A stretch of DNA of 64,000 bases from a virus. Both the position numbers and the translations under genes were made by a program. Location: the UHGV virus genome UHGV-0128973. The stretch is one strand, 5' to 3'. The notes under the pieces were generated by a model. It searched no databases, was not told the DNA's origin, and was given only the letters and a program-made list of their open reading frames with translations. Positions 6,600-14,631 of this stretch are shown piece by piece (within the stretch, counting starts at the first letter, position 1; the number at the start of each line of letters is the position of its first letter).

Positions 6600-6955
6600 A
6601 GCACCACGTCCTGTGTGATAGTTATATCCCTGATACGAATGGATATTTTCAACTTATCAAAAGCATCTCCCTCGGCTACTGACAAGCCAGAAATCGGTAT
6701 GTCAGGTAAATCTACCGTCAGTTTTTGCAACAGCATTGCCTCAACCGCAATTTGAACATGCGACAAGTTGGTCGGTTCGTGTTTAAACTGCGGTAAAACA
6801 TTGCCCCATGACGGATCTCCGTATACCTCACCCTGATAAGTGTTTAGCCACTCATATAAACGAGCGCCCCAGGCCTCCTCCTGGGACTCATACGTTTTTA
6901 CGCCGGATAACTCCAGCGTCAGCAAAGGATCAATTTCGTTATTGTTGGCCATCAA
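6596..6955 (-). CDS. Putative small baseplate wedge protein (119 aa)
   Basis: ORF track; overlaps Sit stop; size and position suggest a gp25-like wedge protein (inference only). Confidence 0.4.
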   Translation of the reverse strand: MMANNNEIDPLLTLELSGVKTYESQEEAWGARLYEWLNTYQGEVYGDPSWGNVLPQFKHEPTNLSHVQIAVEAMLLQKLTVDLPDIPISGLSVAEGDAFDKLKISIRIRDITITQDVVL

Positions 6956-9900
6956 TCAACTCTCGCGTAGTCATTCATCAACGGATCATCAATTGACAGT
7001 GGTACCGTGCGCATAACGCCCGGCTGAGGCGTGCTGACCTTTACGACAGTTCCCTGGCCTTTCGCCGAGTCTTTGGTGTGCTCTTCAATCCTGGCAAGCA
7101 ATGAGGTCATCTGCGCAAACAGCCGCTTCGTTTCACCATCAAGTGAAACGGTATTATCAGCCAACTGCATTGTCGGCTTGGCACCGGAACCGCCAAGGTC
7201 ACTAATAACCTGCCCGTCTATCTGCATACGACCGGTTGGTTGCTGCAAATCGTTGGCGGCAGTCGTCACCTTGGACGTGGAGGCTGGTTCAGTCGCATTA
7301 TTTTTCCGCATCCCCGGCGAGTTGCGGAGTTTATCGAATAGTCCATCAATCCCCATTTGTGCGCCGAGTTGGTCAAAGTAACTTGAGTTGCTGGCCACCG
7401 GACGCGCCTCTTCAACTGGCATCGGAGTATCAACATACACATTGCCAGCTGCTGTTGCGGTCCCCTTCCCTCGTGCACGTTCTTCGAGCGTTCCCTGAAC
7501 GACTTCCCGACGCATACCCCGGCCATTCATGAATTTGTTGACCAGATCGTTAACGCCAACAGCATTGCCGATTTTGTCTACCAGACCGCCTTTCTCAAAC
7601 GGGCTATCACCAGGGGTAAACGCCAGGCCAGTAGACTGATCGATAACAGCGTTATCAGGCAGTGGTCCCCTCACTCCATATTGCGCCCCACCCTGTGCTC
7701 CTGCTCCAGGTGTATAGATTTCACCACCTAAATAGCGAGCACGATGAGTATTGACCTTGATCGCGTACTCACGGTTTTCTTTCGATAAGTCACCTGTGCC
7801 TTTTTTCCACTTATTGATAGTGCCAAACCCAGCGTTATATGCAGTGATGGCCTCGTTTAAGTCTCCATTGGCTTGCTTCAGATACTTGCTCATGAGAAGA
7901 GCCGCAGCTTCTGCCGATTTCACAGGATCAAACGATTCACCTTCAGCTAAGCCAGTCTCTTCACGAGCAATCCCCGTGAACTGAAACATTCCCAGAGCAC
8001 CGGTTTGGGATTTTGCATACGGATTACCACCAGATTCAGTTGCAGCAATCGCGTAAAGAGTGCCTTCTGGAAGACCATATTTATTCTCTAGTTCAGCAAA
8101 ATACGGAGCCAACTTATCGAGATTTGCCTTACCTTCAGATCCAAGACTTCCGACTTTTACATCCAAGCGGCCATTGTTGTAGGTATCCGCAGCTTTCTGA
8201 ATGTCATTCCTGGTGCCAGTGGAATTAAGCGACGATGATGACGAGCTATTTTGACCAATAGCTTTATCAATTTTCTGCAACGCGCTATTGCCCGTTTCTA
8301 CGGCATTTGCATTGATAATCTGATTCGCAGTTTCTTTAACTGTTTTATTGCTATCTTTCGCCGTGTCCAGTGCCGCATTTATCACGCGGGTAACAATATT
8401 AGTCTGTTTGGCATCGGATTCAGTTTTAGAATCAGATGTCTCCTGGTGGCTATTAACCGGAGCTTTTAACTCTGGAGTGATTTCTTTCGCATTAGCCTCG
8501 CTCTTAACCGGAGCTTTTAACTCTGGAGCGATTTCTTTCGCATTAGCCTCGCTATTAACCGGAGCTTTTAACTCTGGAGTGATTTCTTTCGCATCAGCCT
8601 CGCTATTAACCGGAGCTTTTAACTCTGGAGTGATTTCTTTCGCATTAGCCTCGCCGATCGGATTGGGTATTTTTGATACAATCATTGCCGCAGGGGTATT
8701 TTTAACGGCATCAACCGCTGCATCTAATGCTTTACCAGGTAAATTTTTAACCCCATCCCAAATATTACCAGCCGCCTCTTTAATGTGTTTCCCTGGGTTC
8801 TTAATGAAATCAATTGCACTATCAATTGCATCACTGAAAACCTGTTTCAGGTTATCAACAGTAAAGAAGTCTTTGATGGCATCCAGCTTTTCAAGCAGCT
8901 TATTAGATGTATCGCTAAACCATGCTGAAACAGCATCACCAATCTTTGCTGTGTAATCTTCGAACTTGGTAGAAATGGTGTCGCCAAGGTTAGAAATATA
9001 TGTTTCTAAGTTGGTAATCCCACTATCAATGGCCTGGGCAATACTTTCCGTCGAAAATGATTGCAACATATTGCCGATATCCTCAAATCCAAGTGATTTG
9101 AGAACCTCACCAATGGCGCTGCTAATACCAGATACCAGTCCCCCCATATCAAGAACATTGGCTAACGTATAAGCGGCTTTTTGCTGGAATGATGGATCTT
9201 GTCCTGATTTAAGCCCAAACGCTCGACGTTGCGCTTCTGTATCATTCCAACCGGTTACCGCATCATAAATACCTCCAGCCACTGTGCCGACTAAGGGAAT
9301 TGCGCGTAACGCCCCTTTACCAACTGCCTTTAATCCAAGTTTACCTGCTGCCCGGGCAGCCAAATCTCCACCTTCATGGGCGATAGTCTTCTTGCCACCA
9401 CCGCGTAGCATTCCTACAAGTTTCTTTGCCCCCAGAGCGCCAAAAGCGAGTGCTCCAGCTTTTTTCAGCATGCCACGCCCCATTAACAACGACGCGACGC
9501 CACCGGCCCCCTTCCCTAACAGGCTAAATAGTTTGGACAGCAAGCCGCCCTTCTTTTTCCCGGTGTTTTTGGCTATCTGATCAAGGGCGCTGAGAATCTT
9601 GTCATTGCCCTCTTTAATTTCGCTGGTCTGCTCCTGAAGTTCCTGAACTGTCCGTTTTTGGGTGTTAACCTGAACGACATCGGCACTATTTTGCGATTTA
9701 CGCCTAAAAAAACCTTTTCTACGGCTGTTATCGTCATTGCCACGAATCACATCGGCAATAGACTTTCTGGCACCATTAAGCGATCCACCAACTTCTTTTG
9801 ATATCCCGCCAAGCTCCTTCCCTGCTGCCCACAATGGACCAGCAACGGCATAACCTAACGCATCAACGGCACGAGTCTCTGAAGGGTTACCTATGCCTTC

Positions 9901-10794
9901 AGCTACTTTTGACAGTTTTTTTAATAAACCTGATTCAGCATTTAGACGCTCATCATCCTCTTTGCGCCTGGCCTTTTCAGCACGTTCAGCACGGGCATCT
10001 TCCGCTGCGGCCTTACTCCCTGACTTTCCAATAAAACGACCACGCGCATCGCGTTGGTTTTGGCTTTTTTGCGCACCGCCTTTTTGATCGAACATTTCGC
10101 GAGCGTGTTCGGCTGCTTCGGTCCGTTGTGCCTTTATATCCTCTGGTATAGCCTTCCTGCGTCGTTTTTTACCCTTTGGTGTAGTTGATTTGGCCTGCTG
10201 TTCCTGTTGAGCAATGCCCTCCTGAACTACACGAGAAACGTCCCCTAAATTAAGCCGTTTCATTGCGTCAACAATAGGGTCTACTGATGGCGCATTGGCC
10301 ACAAAGTCTGGCCGGGAATTTTCGATTGTTCGATTTAATGCCGACACACTGCGAGATACTGGGTCAACCGTTGCAACGCGTTCCCCTTTCAAATCACGAG
10401 CGAGTTTGACCGTTTCTAACCGCTGTGCTTTAACATCCTCTGTTATTGCCTCTCTTCGTCTATTTGGGGGATTGTGCGCTGTTGGTGCAGCCTGCTGTTC
10501 ACGGTTAGTGACTTTGTCCTCCCGTATACGAGAAACGTCCCCTAAATTAAGCCGTTTTATTGCGTCAACAATAGGGTCCACTGATGGCGCATTGGTCACA
10601 AAGTCAGGACGTGAATTTTCGATTGTGCGATTTAATGCCGACACACTGCGAGATACTGGGTCAACAGTTGCAACTCGTTCCCCTTTCAAATCTTCAACAG
10701 CTTCCCGAATACCTGCAAGCTCTTCCAGCTCTTTCGCGCTGGCGGTTTCAACTGTCCTTATAACATCGTCAATATTGGCGTTTTTTCTTTCCAT
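6952..10794 (-). CDS. sit: Tape-measure-like injected structural protein with lytic transglycosylase domain (Sit-like, 1280 aa)
   Basis: ORF track; contains SLT-type motif AIAATESGGNPYAKSQTGALGMFQFT, Gly/Lys-rich segments and internal tandem repeats. Confidence 0.8.
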   Translation of the reverse strand: MERKNANIDDVIRTVETASAKELEELAGIREAVEDLKGERVATVDPVSRSVSALNRTIENSRPDFVTNAPSVDPIVDAIKRLNLGDVSRIREDKVTNREQQAAPTAHNPPNRRREAITEDVKAQRLETVKLARDLKGERVATVDPVSRSVSALNRTIENSRPDFVANAPSVDPIVDAMKRLNLGDVSRVVQEGIAQQEQQAKSTTPKGKKRRRKAIPEDIKAQRTEAAEHAREMFDQKGGAQKSQNQRDARGRFIGKSGSKAAAEDARAERAEKARRKEDDERLNAESGLLKKLSKVAEGIGNPSETRAVDALGYAVAGPLWAAGKELGGISKEVGGSLNGARKSIADVIRGNDDNSRRKGFFRRKSQNSADVVQVNTQKRTVQELQEQTSEIKEGNDKILSALDQIAKNTGKKKGGLLSKLFSLLGKGAGGVASLLMGRGMLKKAGALAFGALGAKKLVGMLRGGGKKTIAHEGGDLAARAAGKLGLKAVGKGALRAIPLVGTVAGGIYDAVTGWNDTEAQRRAFGLKSGQDPSFQQKAAYTLANVLDMGGLVSGISSAIGEVLKSLGFEDIGNMLQSFSTESIAQAIDSGITNLETYISNLGDTISTKFEDYTAKIGDAVSAWFSDTSNKLLEKLDAIKDFFTVDNLKQVFSDAIDSAIDFIKNPGKHIKEAAGNIWDGVKNLPGKALDAAVDAVKNTPAAMIVSKIPNPIGEANAKEITPELKAPVNSEADAKEITPELKAPVNSEANAKEIAPELKAPVKSEANAKEITPELKAPVNSHQETSDSKTESDAKQTNIVTRVINAALDTAKDSNKTVKETANQIINANAVETGNSALQKIDKAIGQNSSSSSSLNSTGTRNDIQKAADTYNNGRLDVKVGSLGSEGKANLDKLAPYFAELENKYGLPEGTLYAIAATESGGNPYAKSQTGALGMFQFTGIAREETGLAEGESFDPVKSAEAAALLMSKYLKQANGDLNEAITAYNAGFGTINKWKKGTGDLSKENREYAIKVNTHRARYLGGEIYTPGAGAQGGAQYGVRGPLPDNAVIDQSTGLAFTPGDSPFEKGGLVDKIGNAVGVNDLVNKFMNGRGMRREVVQGTLEERARGKGTATAAGNVYVDTPMPVEEARPVASNSSYFDQLGAQMGIDGLFDKLRNSPGMRKNNATEPASTSKVTTAANDLQQPTGRMQIDGQVISDLGGSGAKPTMQLADNTVSLDGETKRLFAQMTSLLARIEEHTKDSAKGQGTVVKVSTPQPGVMRTVPLSIDDPLMNDYARVD
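8452..8650. repeat. About four tandem 45-bp repeats inside sit (encoding AKEITPELKAPVNSE units)
   Basis: Direct reading of the repeated unit accggagcttttaactctggagtgatttctttcgcattagcctcgct. Confidence 0.85.
10231..10691. repeat. Tandem duplication inside sit: two ~164-bp copies, ~94% identical, 297 bp apart (in-frame, 99 aa)
   Basis: Copy 1 at 10231-10394 and copy 2 at 10528-10691, both beginning acgagaaacgtcccctaaattaagccgtt; the protein repeats ATVDPVSRSVSALNRTIENSRPDFV...KRLNLGDVSR twice. Confidence 0.85.
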
Positions 10795-12984: not shown

Positions 12985-13018
12985 TTACCCGATTCTACGA
13001 GTAGTCATTTGTGACAGG

Positions 13019-13495
13019 TCATTTTGCGCGCTTCAGACAGCCATCTTCAGGTGCCGCGTTGAAAAGCTCTGCGGCCTTACGTAGCGTAAATGTTGCTATT
13101 TTTTTTCCGTCTACGTATGCATCGAATGTTTTAACTTCCATATCAGGGGTATCTGACCAAAAACCATACCAGTAACTATCACCCACAGAGGAACCGATAG
13201 AACTGATAGGATATTCATCATCACCAACTTTCAGCGTTATTTGTTCTTTTTTAGCATCAAATGACTCACCGCCAGGTTCTGTTTTCATGAGAGTGAGTAG
13301 TCGTGTTCCTACTTGATTGGGATCCGTATTATTAAATCCAACATCGCACTCAAATGTAAGCGTATAATTATCTTTGCTGGAAACAGCATAAGAACGAACA
13401 CCATGAGTCTCGCCGGTTGACCATTTGCTTACATTTGCCATTGATGAAAATGGAGTAAGCAAAGCAAGAATTAGAAAAAATCGTTTGATGCGCAT
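13019..13495 (-). CDS. Secreted protein with N-terminal signal peptide (158 aa)
   Basis: ORF track; N-terminus MRIKRFFLILALLTPFSSMA is a typical Sec signal. Confidence 0.5.
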   Translation of the reverse strand: MRIKRFFLILALLTPFSSMANVSKWSTGETHGVRSYAVSSKDNYTLTFECDVGFNNTDPNQVGTRLLTLMKTEPGGESFDAKKEQITLKVGDDEYPISSIGSSVGDSYWYGFWSDTPDMEVKTFDAYVDGKKIATFTLRKAAELFNAAPEDGCLKRAK

Positions 13496-13556
13496 TAATT
13501 TATCTCCTTTGGATATTAACGATTATCAATATTTTAATTGGTTATCCATAATATAT

Positions 13557-14204
13557 TTACCATTCATAGGGTAAATTAAGCGCTTTTAAACCTTGCTGAA
13601 AGGTATTAAGTGAGCCGTTCTTTTGTTGTTCCATTTGCTCGCGTGCCGCTTTCTCATACTGCTCCATCCGTTGGTTATACTCTTGCAATTCCTCTGGTGA
13701 GAGGTTTCCCATTGGGGAGTTTGTACCCGGCCCCCTGGCCCGCTCTTCAAGCGTACCCTGCACGTTTTGATGGCGCATTCCTGGGGCATTTCTGATTGAG
13801 TCAATGCCATTTCTTCCAACGTCTTCTTTATTAACGGCATTGCTCGCCACCAGCACACCCCAGCTAGGAATAGCAAAATCAGGAGCGGTTTCGCATGCCT
13901 TTACCATATAATCGAAAGAGCTTCGATTGATCTCGTTTGCGTCGGGATTTAACAGGCGAGAATATTGATATTTAGCATTTTCGTTGGTTGCGACTTTATA
14001 CAGTTCTTGCTGCACCATCGCTTCAGAAAGTTTAAGGCGTTTCATATCTGACAGTAACTTCTTGCGCATGGATTCGTCTTGACTGACAGCAAAGCCGTAA
14101 ACGTGCCCAAGGTATTTCGTATAATCGGTACAAATCTCCTTTACGCTTGATGCTGCATTAACAGTCTCAGCCATAAATAATAACGGTAGTAATAGTTTTC
14201 TCAT
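13557..14204 (-). CDS. Secreted protein carrying a Sit-like motif; candidate superinfection-exclusion (Sim-like) protein
   Basis: Track ORF 13557..14231; likely start at 14204 (RBS AGGTGAGG, signal peptide MRKLLLPLLFMAETVNA). Motif PGMRHQNVQGTLEERARGPG matches Sit RGMRREVVQGTLEERARGKG. Confidence 0.5.
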   Translation of the reverse strand: MRKLLLPLLFMAETVNAASSVKEICTDYTKYLGHVYGFAVSQDESMRKKLLSDMKRLKLSEAMVQQELYKVATNENAKYQYSRLLNPDANEINRSSFDYMVKACETAPDFAIPSWGVLVASNAVNKEDVGRNGIDSIRNAPGMRHQNVQGTLEERARGPGTNSPMGNLSPEELQEYNQRMEQYEKAAREQMEQQKNGSLNTFQQGLKALNLPYEW

Positions 14205-14300
14205 TATAACCTCACCTGCCTTATAACTCATTTAGGGTACATATTTTCGCCTTTAAAAAAAAGAGGTTATTAGATCCAATTGTGTATTTATTAAGCATGT

Positions 14301-14317
14301 AATGCTCTAATAAATTT
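14301..14317 (+). promoter_or_regulatory. C1-operator-like 17-mer (AATGCTCTAATAAATTT) upstream of the c4-icd-ant module
   Basis: 16/17 match to the repeated motif ATTGCTCTAATAAATTT seen 8 times in this window; position matches the immunity-I promoter region of P1-like phages. Confidence 0.6.
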
Positions 14318-14474
14318 GTATTTTTAAGTCGCGAATGCTATCTTTTCGCATCATATTGACCTTTTAATCGTTCAGGCTTATAGTTCCGCCGTCGTAGCAA
14401 ATTCTGCGACCGGGTTTAGCAGCCTGAATGTTAGTGCGGACAACCGCAGATATCCGATATTGCGGTATTTTTGT

Positions 14475-14570
14475 GTCCGTAAAACCGCGTTACGCCCAAA
14501 TTATGGTGGGGCGTGATGGGGAGGCTTCGGCCTGCTGGTTTCACTAACGCCAGTCTGCTAACCCCGTCAC
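14475..14570 (+). ncRNA. c4: c4-like antisense regulatory RNA (approximate bounds)
   Basis: Segments cactaac (14541-14547) and ctgctaa (14556-14562) are complementary to duplicated target elements tttagcagc...gttagtg found upstream (14414-14436) and at the icd ribosome-binding site (14584-14621). Confidence 0.4.
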
Positions 14571-14631
14571 GTCCTGCCACCTGTTTAGCAGCGGGTAGCA
14601 GGTTGTTAAACCTGTTAGTGAGGCCGTAACT

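What the first reader, a model, noticed from the sequence alone, without database searches (positions are those of the whole stretch)
13557..14204. Secreted protein copies a short motif of the injected Sit protein
The signal-peptide protein at 13557-14204 contains GMRHQNVQGTLEERARGPG, matching Sit (6952-10794) GMRREVVQGTLEERARGKG. The DNA is diverged, so the match is at protein level. It sits beside the immunity-I module together with a second secreted ORF (13019-13495), where P1-like phages carry superinfection-exclusion genes. A periplasmic decoy of a Sit segment is one possible exclusion mechanism.
Basis: partly seen in the sequence, partly recalled or inferred. Interest (0 to 1): 0.6.

Follow-up and report, generated by a model that had tools for sequence, protein, structure and literature searches.

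The report
Secreted prophage protein copies tape-measure motif
A P1-like prophage encodes, at the position where phage P1 keeps its superinfection-exclusion genes, a secreted protein whose flexible linker carries a conserved copy of a short motif from the phage's own injected tape-measure protein Sit. That makes it a plausible but untested blocker of incoming related phages.

Summary
The ORF at 13557-14204 (minus strand, 215 aa) shares a 32-47 residue block with Sit (6952-10794, minus strand). The match holds in pairwise BLASTP, in reciprocal PHROG profile hits, in profile-profile comparison and in a search of 50,697 phage genomes. Most identical residues use different codons, so the similarity is old and kept at protein level.

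The gene is not SimC. It is the full-length form of P1 simA: P1 keeps only the first ~46 codons, and simB/simC replace the rest. With a YfjT-like secreted partner (13019-13495) it forms a low-GC cassette between the late promoter LPsit and the C1 operator of the immunity-I region. This cassette occurs in P1-like phages of Escherichia, Salmonella, Klebsiella and Cronobacter.

AlphaFold gives a confident helical N-terminal domain with no fold match. The motif lies in a low-confidence linker, and it is also low-confidence in Sit. The core N-x-x-G-M-R-H-Q is nearly invariant in the family. It recurs once or twice per protein in distant Sit-like tape-measure proteins.

An exclusion function and a decoy mechanism are inferred from position, secretion and mimicry only. 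I found no significant co-variation between cognate pairs, and no partner of the motif is known. This is a candidate new variant of tape-measure-directed exclusion.

The parts
13557..14204 (-). ORF of 215 aa: the full-length homologue of P1 simA, called 'SimA-L' here (phrog_3933). It is a secreted protein.
   Evidence: ORF list. phrog_3933 at E 8.5e-136. The first 48 residues are 83% identical to the P1 simA region. P1 DNA homology resumes at 14065.
14154..14204 (-). Predicted Sec signal peptide, aa 1-17: MRKLLLPLLFMAETVNA | ASS.
   Evidence: Read directly from the sequence: positive n-region, hydrophobic core, V-N-A at positions -3 to -1. N16 and A17 are invariant in the family. No signal-peptide predictor was available.
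13830..14147 (-). N-terminal all-helical domain, aa 20-125, with invariant C25 and C104.
13701..13841 (-). Block shared with Sit, aa 122-168. The core GMRHQNVQGTLEERARGPGT is at 13722-13781. It lies in a low-confidence linker.
   Evidence: BLASTP E 7e-9. hhalign E 5.5e-8. Block-averaged pLDDT 47-64 over aa 131-170. K126 E127 D128 G130 I137 N139 G142 R144 are at least 90% conserved.
13581..13697 (-). C-terminal charged helix, aa 170-208. This module is variable: absent in the 163-aa variant and replaced by Cys-containing modules in other lineages.
   Evidence: AlphaFold2 helix 170-208. Alignment A1. Variant list. Breakpoint at 13725.
6952..10794 (-). Sit, the tape-measure protein and structural injection transglycosylase, 1280 aa.
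   Evidence: ORF list. phrog_2533 and Pfam SLT at aa 898-1007, E 1e-26. Annotated as sit in P1 and P7.
7438..7566 (-). Sit motif copy 1, aa 1077-1119. The core GMRREVVQGTLEERARGKGT is at 7459-7518. It lies 70 residues after the SLT domain.
   Evidence: The motif is conserved in Sit proteins whose last 280 residues are only 43-55% identical, and in a 38%-identical representative. Block-averaged pLDDT 26-54 over segment residues 191-250, which contain the motif.
7297..7356 (-). Sit motif copy 2, aa 1147-1166: MGIDGLFDKLRNSPGMRKNN.
   Evidence: BLASTP E 0.01 against ORF aa 129-147. Two alleles occur among P1-like phages.
13019..13495 (-). Second secreted ORF of the cassette, 158 aa, phrog_3429. 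Its homologues carry Pfam PF27224 (YfjT).
   Evidence: It is 64% identical to the YfjT-family gene of L080. It co-occurs with SimA-L in Salmonella, Klebsiella and Cronobacter P1-like phages.
13013..14300 (.). Variable 'sim' cassette slot, bounded by the late promoter LPsit and pmgC on one side and the C1 operator Oc4 on the other.
   Evidence: DNA homology to P1 stops at 13012 and to P7 at 13017, and homology to P7 resumes at 14303. P1 and P7 annotation. GC is 41% against 47.6% for the window.
14301..14317 (+). C1 repressor operator (Oc4/Op51 equivalent), immediately upstream of the cassette's promoter region.
   Evidence: One mismatch to the consensus ATTGCTCTAATAAATTT. The position corresponds to Oc4 in the P1 record.
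14378..14584 (+). Immunity-I RNA elements: c4 a1b1 targets (14378-14430) and C4 antisense RNA (14499-14584).
   Evidence: Rfam RF03163 at 55.5 bits and RF01695 at 70 bits, both above their gathering scores.

Best explanation
The ORF is the intact form of the gene that survives in phage P1 only as the 52-codon stub simA.

What is shown:
- It encodes a Sec-exported protein with three parts: a compact helical N-terminal domain, a flexible linker, and a variable C-terminal module.
- The linker carries a conserved copy of a linear motif, (K/D)..G...(I/L)..N..GMRHQ.VQGTLEERARG. The same motif occurs once or twice in the flexible region just after the transglycosylase domain of the tape-measure protein Sit.
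- The gene lies in a moron-like cassette between the late tail operon and the C1-controlled immunity-I region. This is the slot of P1's exclusion genes.

What is inferred (most likely function): prophage-expressed superinfection exclusion of P1-like phages, acting after adsorption. When a superinfecting phage contracts, Sit is expelled into the periplasm. The resident protein then presents the same peptide and occupies the motif's still unidentified partner. That partner could be a host envelope component or a part of the incoming tail tip or Sit itself. The Sit-dependent step that opens the way for DNA would then stall.

Exclusion, the periplasmic site of action and competition for a partner are all inferences.
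For: Identity and locus:
- The N-terminal 46-48 residues match P1 SimA, and P1 DNA homology resumes at codon ~47.
- The P1 record annotates simC at this slot as superimmunity.
- The slot holds three unrelated cassettes: P1 simABC, P7 upf50.0/50.5 and this one. The P7 proteins are annotated with signal peptides, and the two ORFs here and P1 SimB and SimC have signal-peptide-like N-termini by eye. P1 SimA keeps this ORF's signal peptide.
- The sim region is a known variable region of P1-like phage-plasmids (PMC9603915).

Motif:
- Pairwise, profile-level and database-level significance.
- 13 of 19 identical residues use different codons, so this is not recent gene conversion.
- The 11-mer VQGTLEERARG is identical in both proteins of this phage, with 8 of 11 codons different (read from the sequences printed).
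- Strongly conserved residues sit inside an otherwise low-pLDDT linker.
- The motif is also in a low-confidence region of Sit.
- The 163-aa variant ends two residues after the shared block.
- Distant Sit-like tape-measure proteins keep LG..K(L/I/V)..A.G(M/L)RHQ once or twice, which marks it as a functional element of the tape-measure protein.
- No other sim-slot protein shares anything with Sit.

Precedent: exclusion proteins that act on the tape-measure step are known, namely TP-J34 Ltp and HK97 gp15 (as cited in PMC10883804).
Against: - No phenotype is available.
- From memory, simC alone gives the Sim phenotype in P1. The P1 record calls simA and simB only 'putative accessory'.
- Cognate pairs show no significant co-variation (8 of 120 permutations).
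- The two alleles of Sit motif copy 2 do not track cassette type.
- About half of the family lineages retain only N..GMRHQ and replace the second half by Cys-containing modules. If mimicry matters, only the first half is universal.
- The motif's partner is unknown. Sit is unresolved in the P1 virion structure.
- Distant phages whose tape-measure protein has the motif show no small motif-bearing ORF within about 6-10 kb upstream of the motif.
- Expression in the lysogen is assumed from position only. The promoter scan was no better than shuffles.
Confidence: 0.4

Rival explanations
1. The protein is an exclusion or envelope factor whose helical N-terminal domain does the work. For example, it could bind and inhibit the Sit transglycosylase or another ejected protein, as T4 Spackle inhibits the gp5 lysozyme. 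The Sit-like peptide would then be only a tether or localisation element, for instance binding the same envelope structure as Sit, and not a competitive decoy.
For: The N-terminal domain is the best conserved and most confidently folded part, with 35 invariant columns including two Cys. The second half of the motif and the C-terminal module are exchangeable. Periplasmic inhibitors of tail muralytic enzymes are a known kind of exclusion; T4 Spackle is cited from my own knowledge.
Confidence: 0.2
2. The protein is not an exclusion factor. The cassette would be a lysogenic-conversion moron encoding two periplasmic proteins that alter host envelope physiology. The Sit-like block would be a piece captured from a sit gene by illegitimate recombination and retained as a linker.
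For: The cassette has low GC (41%), while the motif plus C-terminal part has backbone-like GC (48%), which suggests a mosaic origin. Breakpoints cluster at the motif edge. The partner ORF belongs to the YfjT family. No defence-system model matches either ORF.
Against: The block is old and kept at protein level across lineages with 44-100% identity. The slot is the exclusion locus of P1. The family was found only on P1-like elements that also encode a Sit with the motif.
Confidence: 0.2
3. The similarity is a chance or compositional match of no significance.
For: The shared block is short (32-47 residues) and lies in regions predicted to be disordered.
Against: E 7e-9 pairwise, reciprocal profile hits, hhalign E 5.5e-8, shuffles reach at most 9 of 19 identities against 15 observed, and database-corrected tblastn hits fall only on Sit of P1-like phages.
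Confidence: 0.02

Closest known systems
Phage P1 sim (superimmunity) locus: simA, simB, simC
   Same: Same genomic slot between LPsit/pmgC and the C1 operator of c4-icd-ant. The proteins are signal-peptide bearing. The first ~46 residues are the same gene as P1 simA.
   Different: P1 SimC, which the P1 record annotates as superimmunity, has no sequence similarity to this protein or to Sit. In P1 the motif-bearing part of simA has been replaced by simB/simC.
Exclusion proteins directed at the tape-measure protein: TP-J34 Ltp and HK97 gp15
   Same: They are prophage-encoded envelope proteins that block DNA entry after adsorption, with the tape-measure protein as the genetic determinant of sensitivity (as cited in PMC10883804). 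The proposed point of action is the same.
   Different: Ltp is a lipoprotein and gp15 an inner-membrane protein of siphophages, and neither is reported to copy a tape-measure sequence. No sequence or fold relation was detected. The link to the tape-measure protein here is sequence mimicry, not genetics.
T4 Spackle (Sp), periplasmic inhibitor of the gp5 tail lysozyme
   Same: A small secreted helical protein of a myophage that acts on the cell-wall-digesting component of an incoming tail (own knowledge).
Sit-type tape-measure proteins of P1-like myophages (phrog_2533)
   Same: They share the linear motif N..GMR(H/R)(Q/E).VQGTL.ERA.G.GT. The core G(M/L)RHQ is repeated in distant members.
   Different: Only 32-47 residues are shared. 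The ORF has no SLT domain, no tape-measure architecture and a signal peptide.

Membership tests
P1 SimA / phrog_3933 ('SimA domain protein') | Sequence homology to P1 SimA and to phrog_3933 | tested here: met
   phrog_3933 at E 8.5e-136 over the full length. 83% identity to the P1 simA region over aa 1-48, and 96% DNA identity from 14065 upward.
P1 SimA / phrog_3933 ('SimA domain protein') | Location at the sim slot next to Oc4/c4-icd-ant | tested here: met
P1 SimC superinfection-exclusion protein | Sequence homology to SimC | tested here: not met
   By eye, the SimC sequence shows no resemblance to the ORF; no direct alignment was run. The homologue search found no SimC-like protein. DNA homology to P1 is absent across 13013-14064.
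P1 SimC superinfection-exclusion protein | Exclusion of P1 after adsorption when expressed | not testable with these tools
   Needs plating and DNA-entry assays.
Exclusion proteins directed at the tape-measure protein (Ltp, HK97 gp15) | Homology or fold similarity to Ltp or gp15 | tested here: not met
Exclusion proteins directed at the tape-measure protein (Ltp, HK97 gp15) | Sensitivity determined by the tape-measure protein of the incoming phage | not testable with these tools
   Only indirect evidence: the shared motif with Sit.
T4 Spackle-type inhibitors of tail muralytic enzymes | Fold similarity to Spackle, or predicted binding to the muralytic domain | tested here: not met
PTP-like phytase (Pfam PF14566) | Score above the gathering threshold, a PTP fold and a CX5R catalytic loop | tested here: not met
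Sit-type tape-measure protein | Tape-measure architecture: long helical protein, SLT domain, conserved C-terminus | tested here: not met
   Only a 32-47 residue block is shared. No SLT hit.

The most novel reading that the evidence does not exclude
A prophage excludes its relatives by molecular mimicry of the injection machinery. A periplasmic protein would display a conserved linear motif (N..GMRHQ...) of the tape-measure protein and thereby titrate the factor that the ejected tape-measure protein must engage to open the envelope for DNA. If so, the motif and its unknown partner define an essential, so far unrecognised step of genome entry in P1-like myophages. P1 simA would be the relic of the ancestral exclusion gene of the group.
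Probability: 0.3. Interest if true: 0.75.

Novelty: new variant of a known kind. Interest (0 to 1): 0.55.

Why it matters
How myophage DNA crosses the periplasm and inner membrane after tail contraction is poorly understood, and so is the role of the tape-measure protein's C-terminal part. In P1, Sit is not even resolved in the 2026 virion structure.

A conserved, repeated linear motif in Sit that is copied by a secreted prophage protein at the exclusion locus gives a concrete handle on this step. It names a peptide to mutate, a bait for finding the partner, and a simple plating assay.

It also reinterprets P1 simA, long annotated as a tiny 'accessory' ORF, as the stub of a larger gene. A match to the gene is found in 251 of 5426 complete E. 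coli genomes. In 81 of them the match covers at least 80% of the gene, and nearly all matches are on P1-like plasmids.

If the protein does exclude by mimicry, it would add a new mechanism to the short list of tape-measure-directed exclusion systems.

Tried and rejected
- Is the ORF SimC? No. By eye the SimC sequence shows no resemblance to the ORF; no direct alignment was run.
- Co-variation between the secreted protein's motif and the cognate Sit motif in five lineages: 8 of 120 permutations reach the observed sum, not significant.
- The alleles of Sit motif copy 2 do not track cassette type.
- Does the motif dock on the Sit SLT domain as an autoinhibitory peptide? The AlphaFold2 model of Sit aa 880-1200 leaves the motif region at pLDDT 26-54, so there is no support.
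- The near-threshold Pfam PTP-like phytase hit is rejected: below cut-off, no CX5R loop, all-helical model.
- PADLOC and NCBIfam gave nothing.
- A homologue search with a 76-residue Sit fragment returned only 5 fragments, because of the word-index limitation.
- Motif-bearing small proteins in distant phages: the degenerate DNA pattern had too few specified bases, and the first motif alignment was too diverse for the locus finder. The narrower alignment found four distant P1-like contigs whose tape-measure protein has the motif. None has a small motif-bearing ORF within about 6-10 kb upstream of the motif.
- The P1 genome paper (PMC523184) is not held. Literature searches found the sim region listed only as a variable region.

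Full report
**What is there.** The window is a P1-like phage (Punavirus). At this locus its closest deposited relative is vB_EcoM-Ro157c2YLVW, 97% identical over 2 kb, while P1 aligns over only 47% of the stretch. All genes discussed are on the minus strand.
- The flagged ORF runs 14204 to 13557 and encodes 215 aa. GGTGAGG lies 7 nt upstream of the ATG, and an in-frame alternative start lies at 14231.
- Sit runs 10794 to 6952 and encodes 1280 aa, with a Pfam SLT domain at aa 898-1007 (E 1e-26).
- A second ORF with a signal-peptide-like N-terminus runs 13495 to 13019 and encodes 158 aa.
- The immunity-I module lies directly upstream on the other strand: a C1 operator at 14301-14317, the c4 a1b1 targets at 14378-14430 and C4 RNA at 14499-14584, then icd and ant.

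- BLASTP aligns ORF aa 122-168 with Sit aa 1077-1119: 23/47 identical, E 7e-9. A weaker second match links ORF aa 129-147 to Sit aa 1147-1166 (E 0.01), so Sit carries two copies of the first half of the motif.
- The best ungapped 19-residue window has 15 identities, against at most 9 in 30 shuffles.
- The 34-codon block is only 60% identical in DNA. Of 19 identical residues, 13 use different codons. The 11-mer VQGTLEERARG is identical in both proteins although 8 of its 11 codons differ (sequences). This is old, protein-level conservation and not recent gene conversion.
- At family level the ORF hits the Sit profile phrog_2533 (E 7.7e-8), and Sit hits the ORF's profile phrog_3933 (E 6.5e-4).
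- hhalign of the two family alignments gives 94.8% probability, E 5.5e-8, 32 columns and 56% identity.
- tblastn of the 47-residue block against 50,697 phage genomes hits only P1-like phages, either this ORF or Sit, at database-corrected E of 3e-4 to 8e-6.
- An exhaustive phmmer search with the last 261 residues of Sit against 1.84 billion representatives found only 16 proteins. By length and matched region they look like Sit-like tape-measure proteins or fragments of them; I read seven of them.

**What the gene is.** It is not SimC.
- By eye, P1 SimC (264 aa) shows no resemblance to the ORF; no direct alignment was run. It shares nothing with Sit.
- P1 SimA (52 aa) is the first ~46 residues of this protein: MSYKAGEVIMRKLLLPLLFMAGTVNAASSVKEICTDYTKYLGHVY, then a divergent tail and a stop.
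- DNA homology between the window and P1 stops at 13012, just past the late promoter LPsit. It resumes at 14065, which is codon ~47 of the ORF.
- So in P1 the simB-simC segment has replaced most of an ancestral gene, and the window carries the intact form. I call it SimA-L.
- P7 has a third, unrelated cassette, upf50.0/upf50.5, whose products are both annotated with signal peptides. Its breakpoints are at 13017 and 14303.
- The slot 13013-14300 has 41% GC against 47.6% for the window. The literature lists it as one of eight variable regions of P1-like phage-plasmids (PMC9603915).

**Distribution.**
- The homologue search found 28 clusters. The named ones come from Escherichia, Salmonella and Klebsiella, and many lie on contigs of about 90 kb.
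- Of 69 viral contigs, 24 carry the 215-aa form and 14 the 163-aa form. Seven carry divergent forms and 24 carry the P1-type stub followed by simB.
- Cronobacter phage JK004 also has the gene.
- 251 of 5426 complete E. coli genomes have a match, 81 of them near full length, and 248 of 252 places are on plasmids.
- Outside the P1-type and 163-aa forms, the gene is almost always followed by a homologue of the second ORF, which belongs to the Pfam YfjT family. The 163-aa form is followed by a 28%-identical relative.
- The two-gene cassette is thus the widespread occupant of the slot, and probably the older one.

**Anatomy of the protein.**
- The N-terminus (MRK, then LLLPLLFMAETV, then VNA|ASS) has the form of a Sec signal peptide without a lipobox. 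This is read from the sequence, since no predictor was available.
- AlphaFold2 on the 20-sequence alignment gives a confident helical domain for aa 20-125: pLDDT 92-97 over aa 21-120 and 85 for aa 121-130.
- The family alignment has 35 invariant columns, including C25 and C104, which is consistent with a periplasmic disulfide (inference).
- The shared block lies in a linker with block-averaged pLDDT of 47-64 over aa 131-170. Yet K126, E127, D128, G130, I137, N139, G142 and R144 are at least 90% conserved. That is the signature of a short linear motif.
- A C-terminal helix (aa 170-208) follows and is exchangeable. The 163-aa variant diverges below 13725 and stops two residues after the shared block (…RGPGVAP*). 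Other lineages carry Cys-containing modules instead.
- About half of the lineages keep only the first half of the motif (N..GMRHQ) and replace VQGTLEERARG.

**The motif in Sit.**
- In an AlphaFold2 model of Sit aa 880-1200 the SLT domain is confident. Everything after it, including both motif copies, has pLDDT of 26-54 and does not dock on the enzyme.
- The motif is nevertheless strongly conserved. Sit proteins whose last 280 residues are only 43-55% identical, and a representative at 38% identity, keep GMR(H/R)(E/Q).V.QGTL.(E/D)RA(R/Y)G.GT or a close variant.
- More distant tape-measure proteins of the same superfamily have one or two repeats, about 50 residues long in three of them, ending in LG..K(L/I/V)..A.G(M/L)RHQ.
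- It is therefore a functional element of this family of tape-measure proteins, and its partner is unknown. The 2026 P1 cryo-EM study could not resolve Sit (PMC12810830).

**How it most likely works.**
Shown: a secreted protein, encoded in the exclusion slot, displays a conserved copy of a tape-measure linear motif on a flexible linker.

Inferred: it is made by the prophage, resides in the periplasm, and interferes with the Sit-dependent step of a superinfecting P1-like phage by competing for the motif's partner. That partner could be a host factor or a part of the incoming tail tip or Sit. This would be a tape-measure-directed exclusion like TP-J34 Ltp or HK97 gp15 (cited in PMC10883804), but achieved by mimicry. 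I give this 0.4.

Evidence against:
- No phenotype is available.
- No significant co-variation of cognate pairs (8 of 120 permutations).
- No link between Sit motif alleles and cassette type.
- Only the first half of the motif is universal.
- Distant phages with the motif in their tape-measure protein show no such small ORF nearby.
- The promoter scan is uninformative.

Rivals:
- The N-terminal domain is the effector and the motif only a tether (0.2).
- The cassette is a conversion moron unrelated to entry, with the block a captured piece of sit. The backbone-like GC of the motif and C-terminal part, 48% against 42% for the N-terminal domain, fits a mosaic origin (0.2).
- Chance similarity (0.02).

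**Comparison with what is known, and novelty.** The locus and the concept of periplasmic exclusion in P1 are known. I found no description of the full-length SimA family or of its shared motif with Sit in the searchable literature. Databases call the protein 'hypothetical' or 'simA domain protein'. I rate it a new variant of a known kind: a candidate tape-measure-directed exclusion protein with a mimicry element. Interest is moderate (0.55), because the sequence facts are solid and make a poorly understood entry step testable, while the mechanism is unproven.

Noticed in passing
window 14065-14231 compared with P1 record L001:2897-3055: P1 simA (52 aa, annotated as a 'putative superimmunity accessory function') is a truncated stub of the 215-aa gene in this window. 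The P1 simB-simC segment replaced the rest, with the breakpoint at codon ~47.
   Followed up: yes
window 13019-13495 (-): The second ORF of the cassette (158 aa, signal-peptide-like N-terminus, phrog_3429) is 64% identical to genes whose products carry Pfam PF27224 (YfjT). It travels with SimA-L in Escherichia, Salmonella, Klebsiella and Cronobacter P1-like phages. Its function is unknown.
   Followed up: partly
window 8449-8654 and 10184-10395 / 10481-10692 (inside sit): Sit here is 1280 aa, while the aligned sit stretch spans about 3393-3423 nt in P7, JL22, RCS47 and other relatives. It contains a 51-nt tandem array of 4 copies (the 17-aa unit EANAKEITPELKAPVNS) and a duplication with 297-nt spacing near the N-terminus (86% identity over 212 nt). 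If tape-measure length sets tail length, this phage would have a longer tail.
   Followed up: partly
L030-L042 (e.g. L030:10001-10483) compared with window 13725: A common 163-aa allele of the gene ends two residues after the shared block (…EERARGPGVAP*). It is followed by a different second gene, only 28% identical to orf2. The recombination breakpoint falls inside the motif-coding DNA.
   Followed up: partly
P0041, P0043-P0046; loci L084-L087: Distant Sit-like tape-measure proteins carry one or two repeats ending in LG..K(L/I/V)..A.G(M/L)RHQ. In P0044-P0046 the repeats are about 50 residues long and begin with NG.(T/I/R)YR(K/R)A.(L/M)P.D. This is an undescribed conserved repeat between the muralytic domain and the conserved C-terminus.
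   Followed up: partly
window 13557-14204, Pfam scan: Many family members carry a precomputed Pfam PF14566 (PTP-like phytase) label, and the window protein scores 26.8 bits against a cut-off of 27. The all-helical model and the lack of a CX5R loop indicate a spurious label that could mislead automated annotation.
   Followed up: yes
window 14166 (codon 13 of the ORF): The window's allele has E13 in the signal-peptide region (FMAETVNA). All other full-length (215-aa) alleles from the viral contigs have G at this position (FMAGTVNA, or FMPGTVNA in L028). The effect on export is unknown.
   Followed up: no
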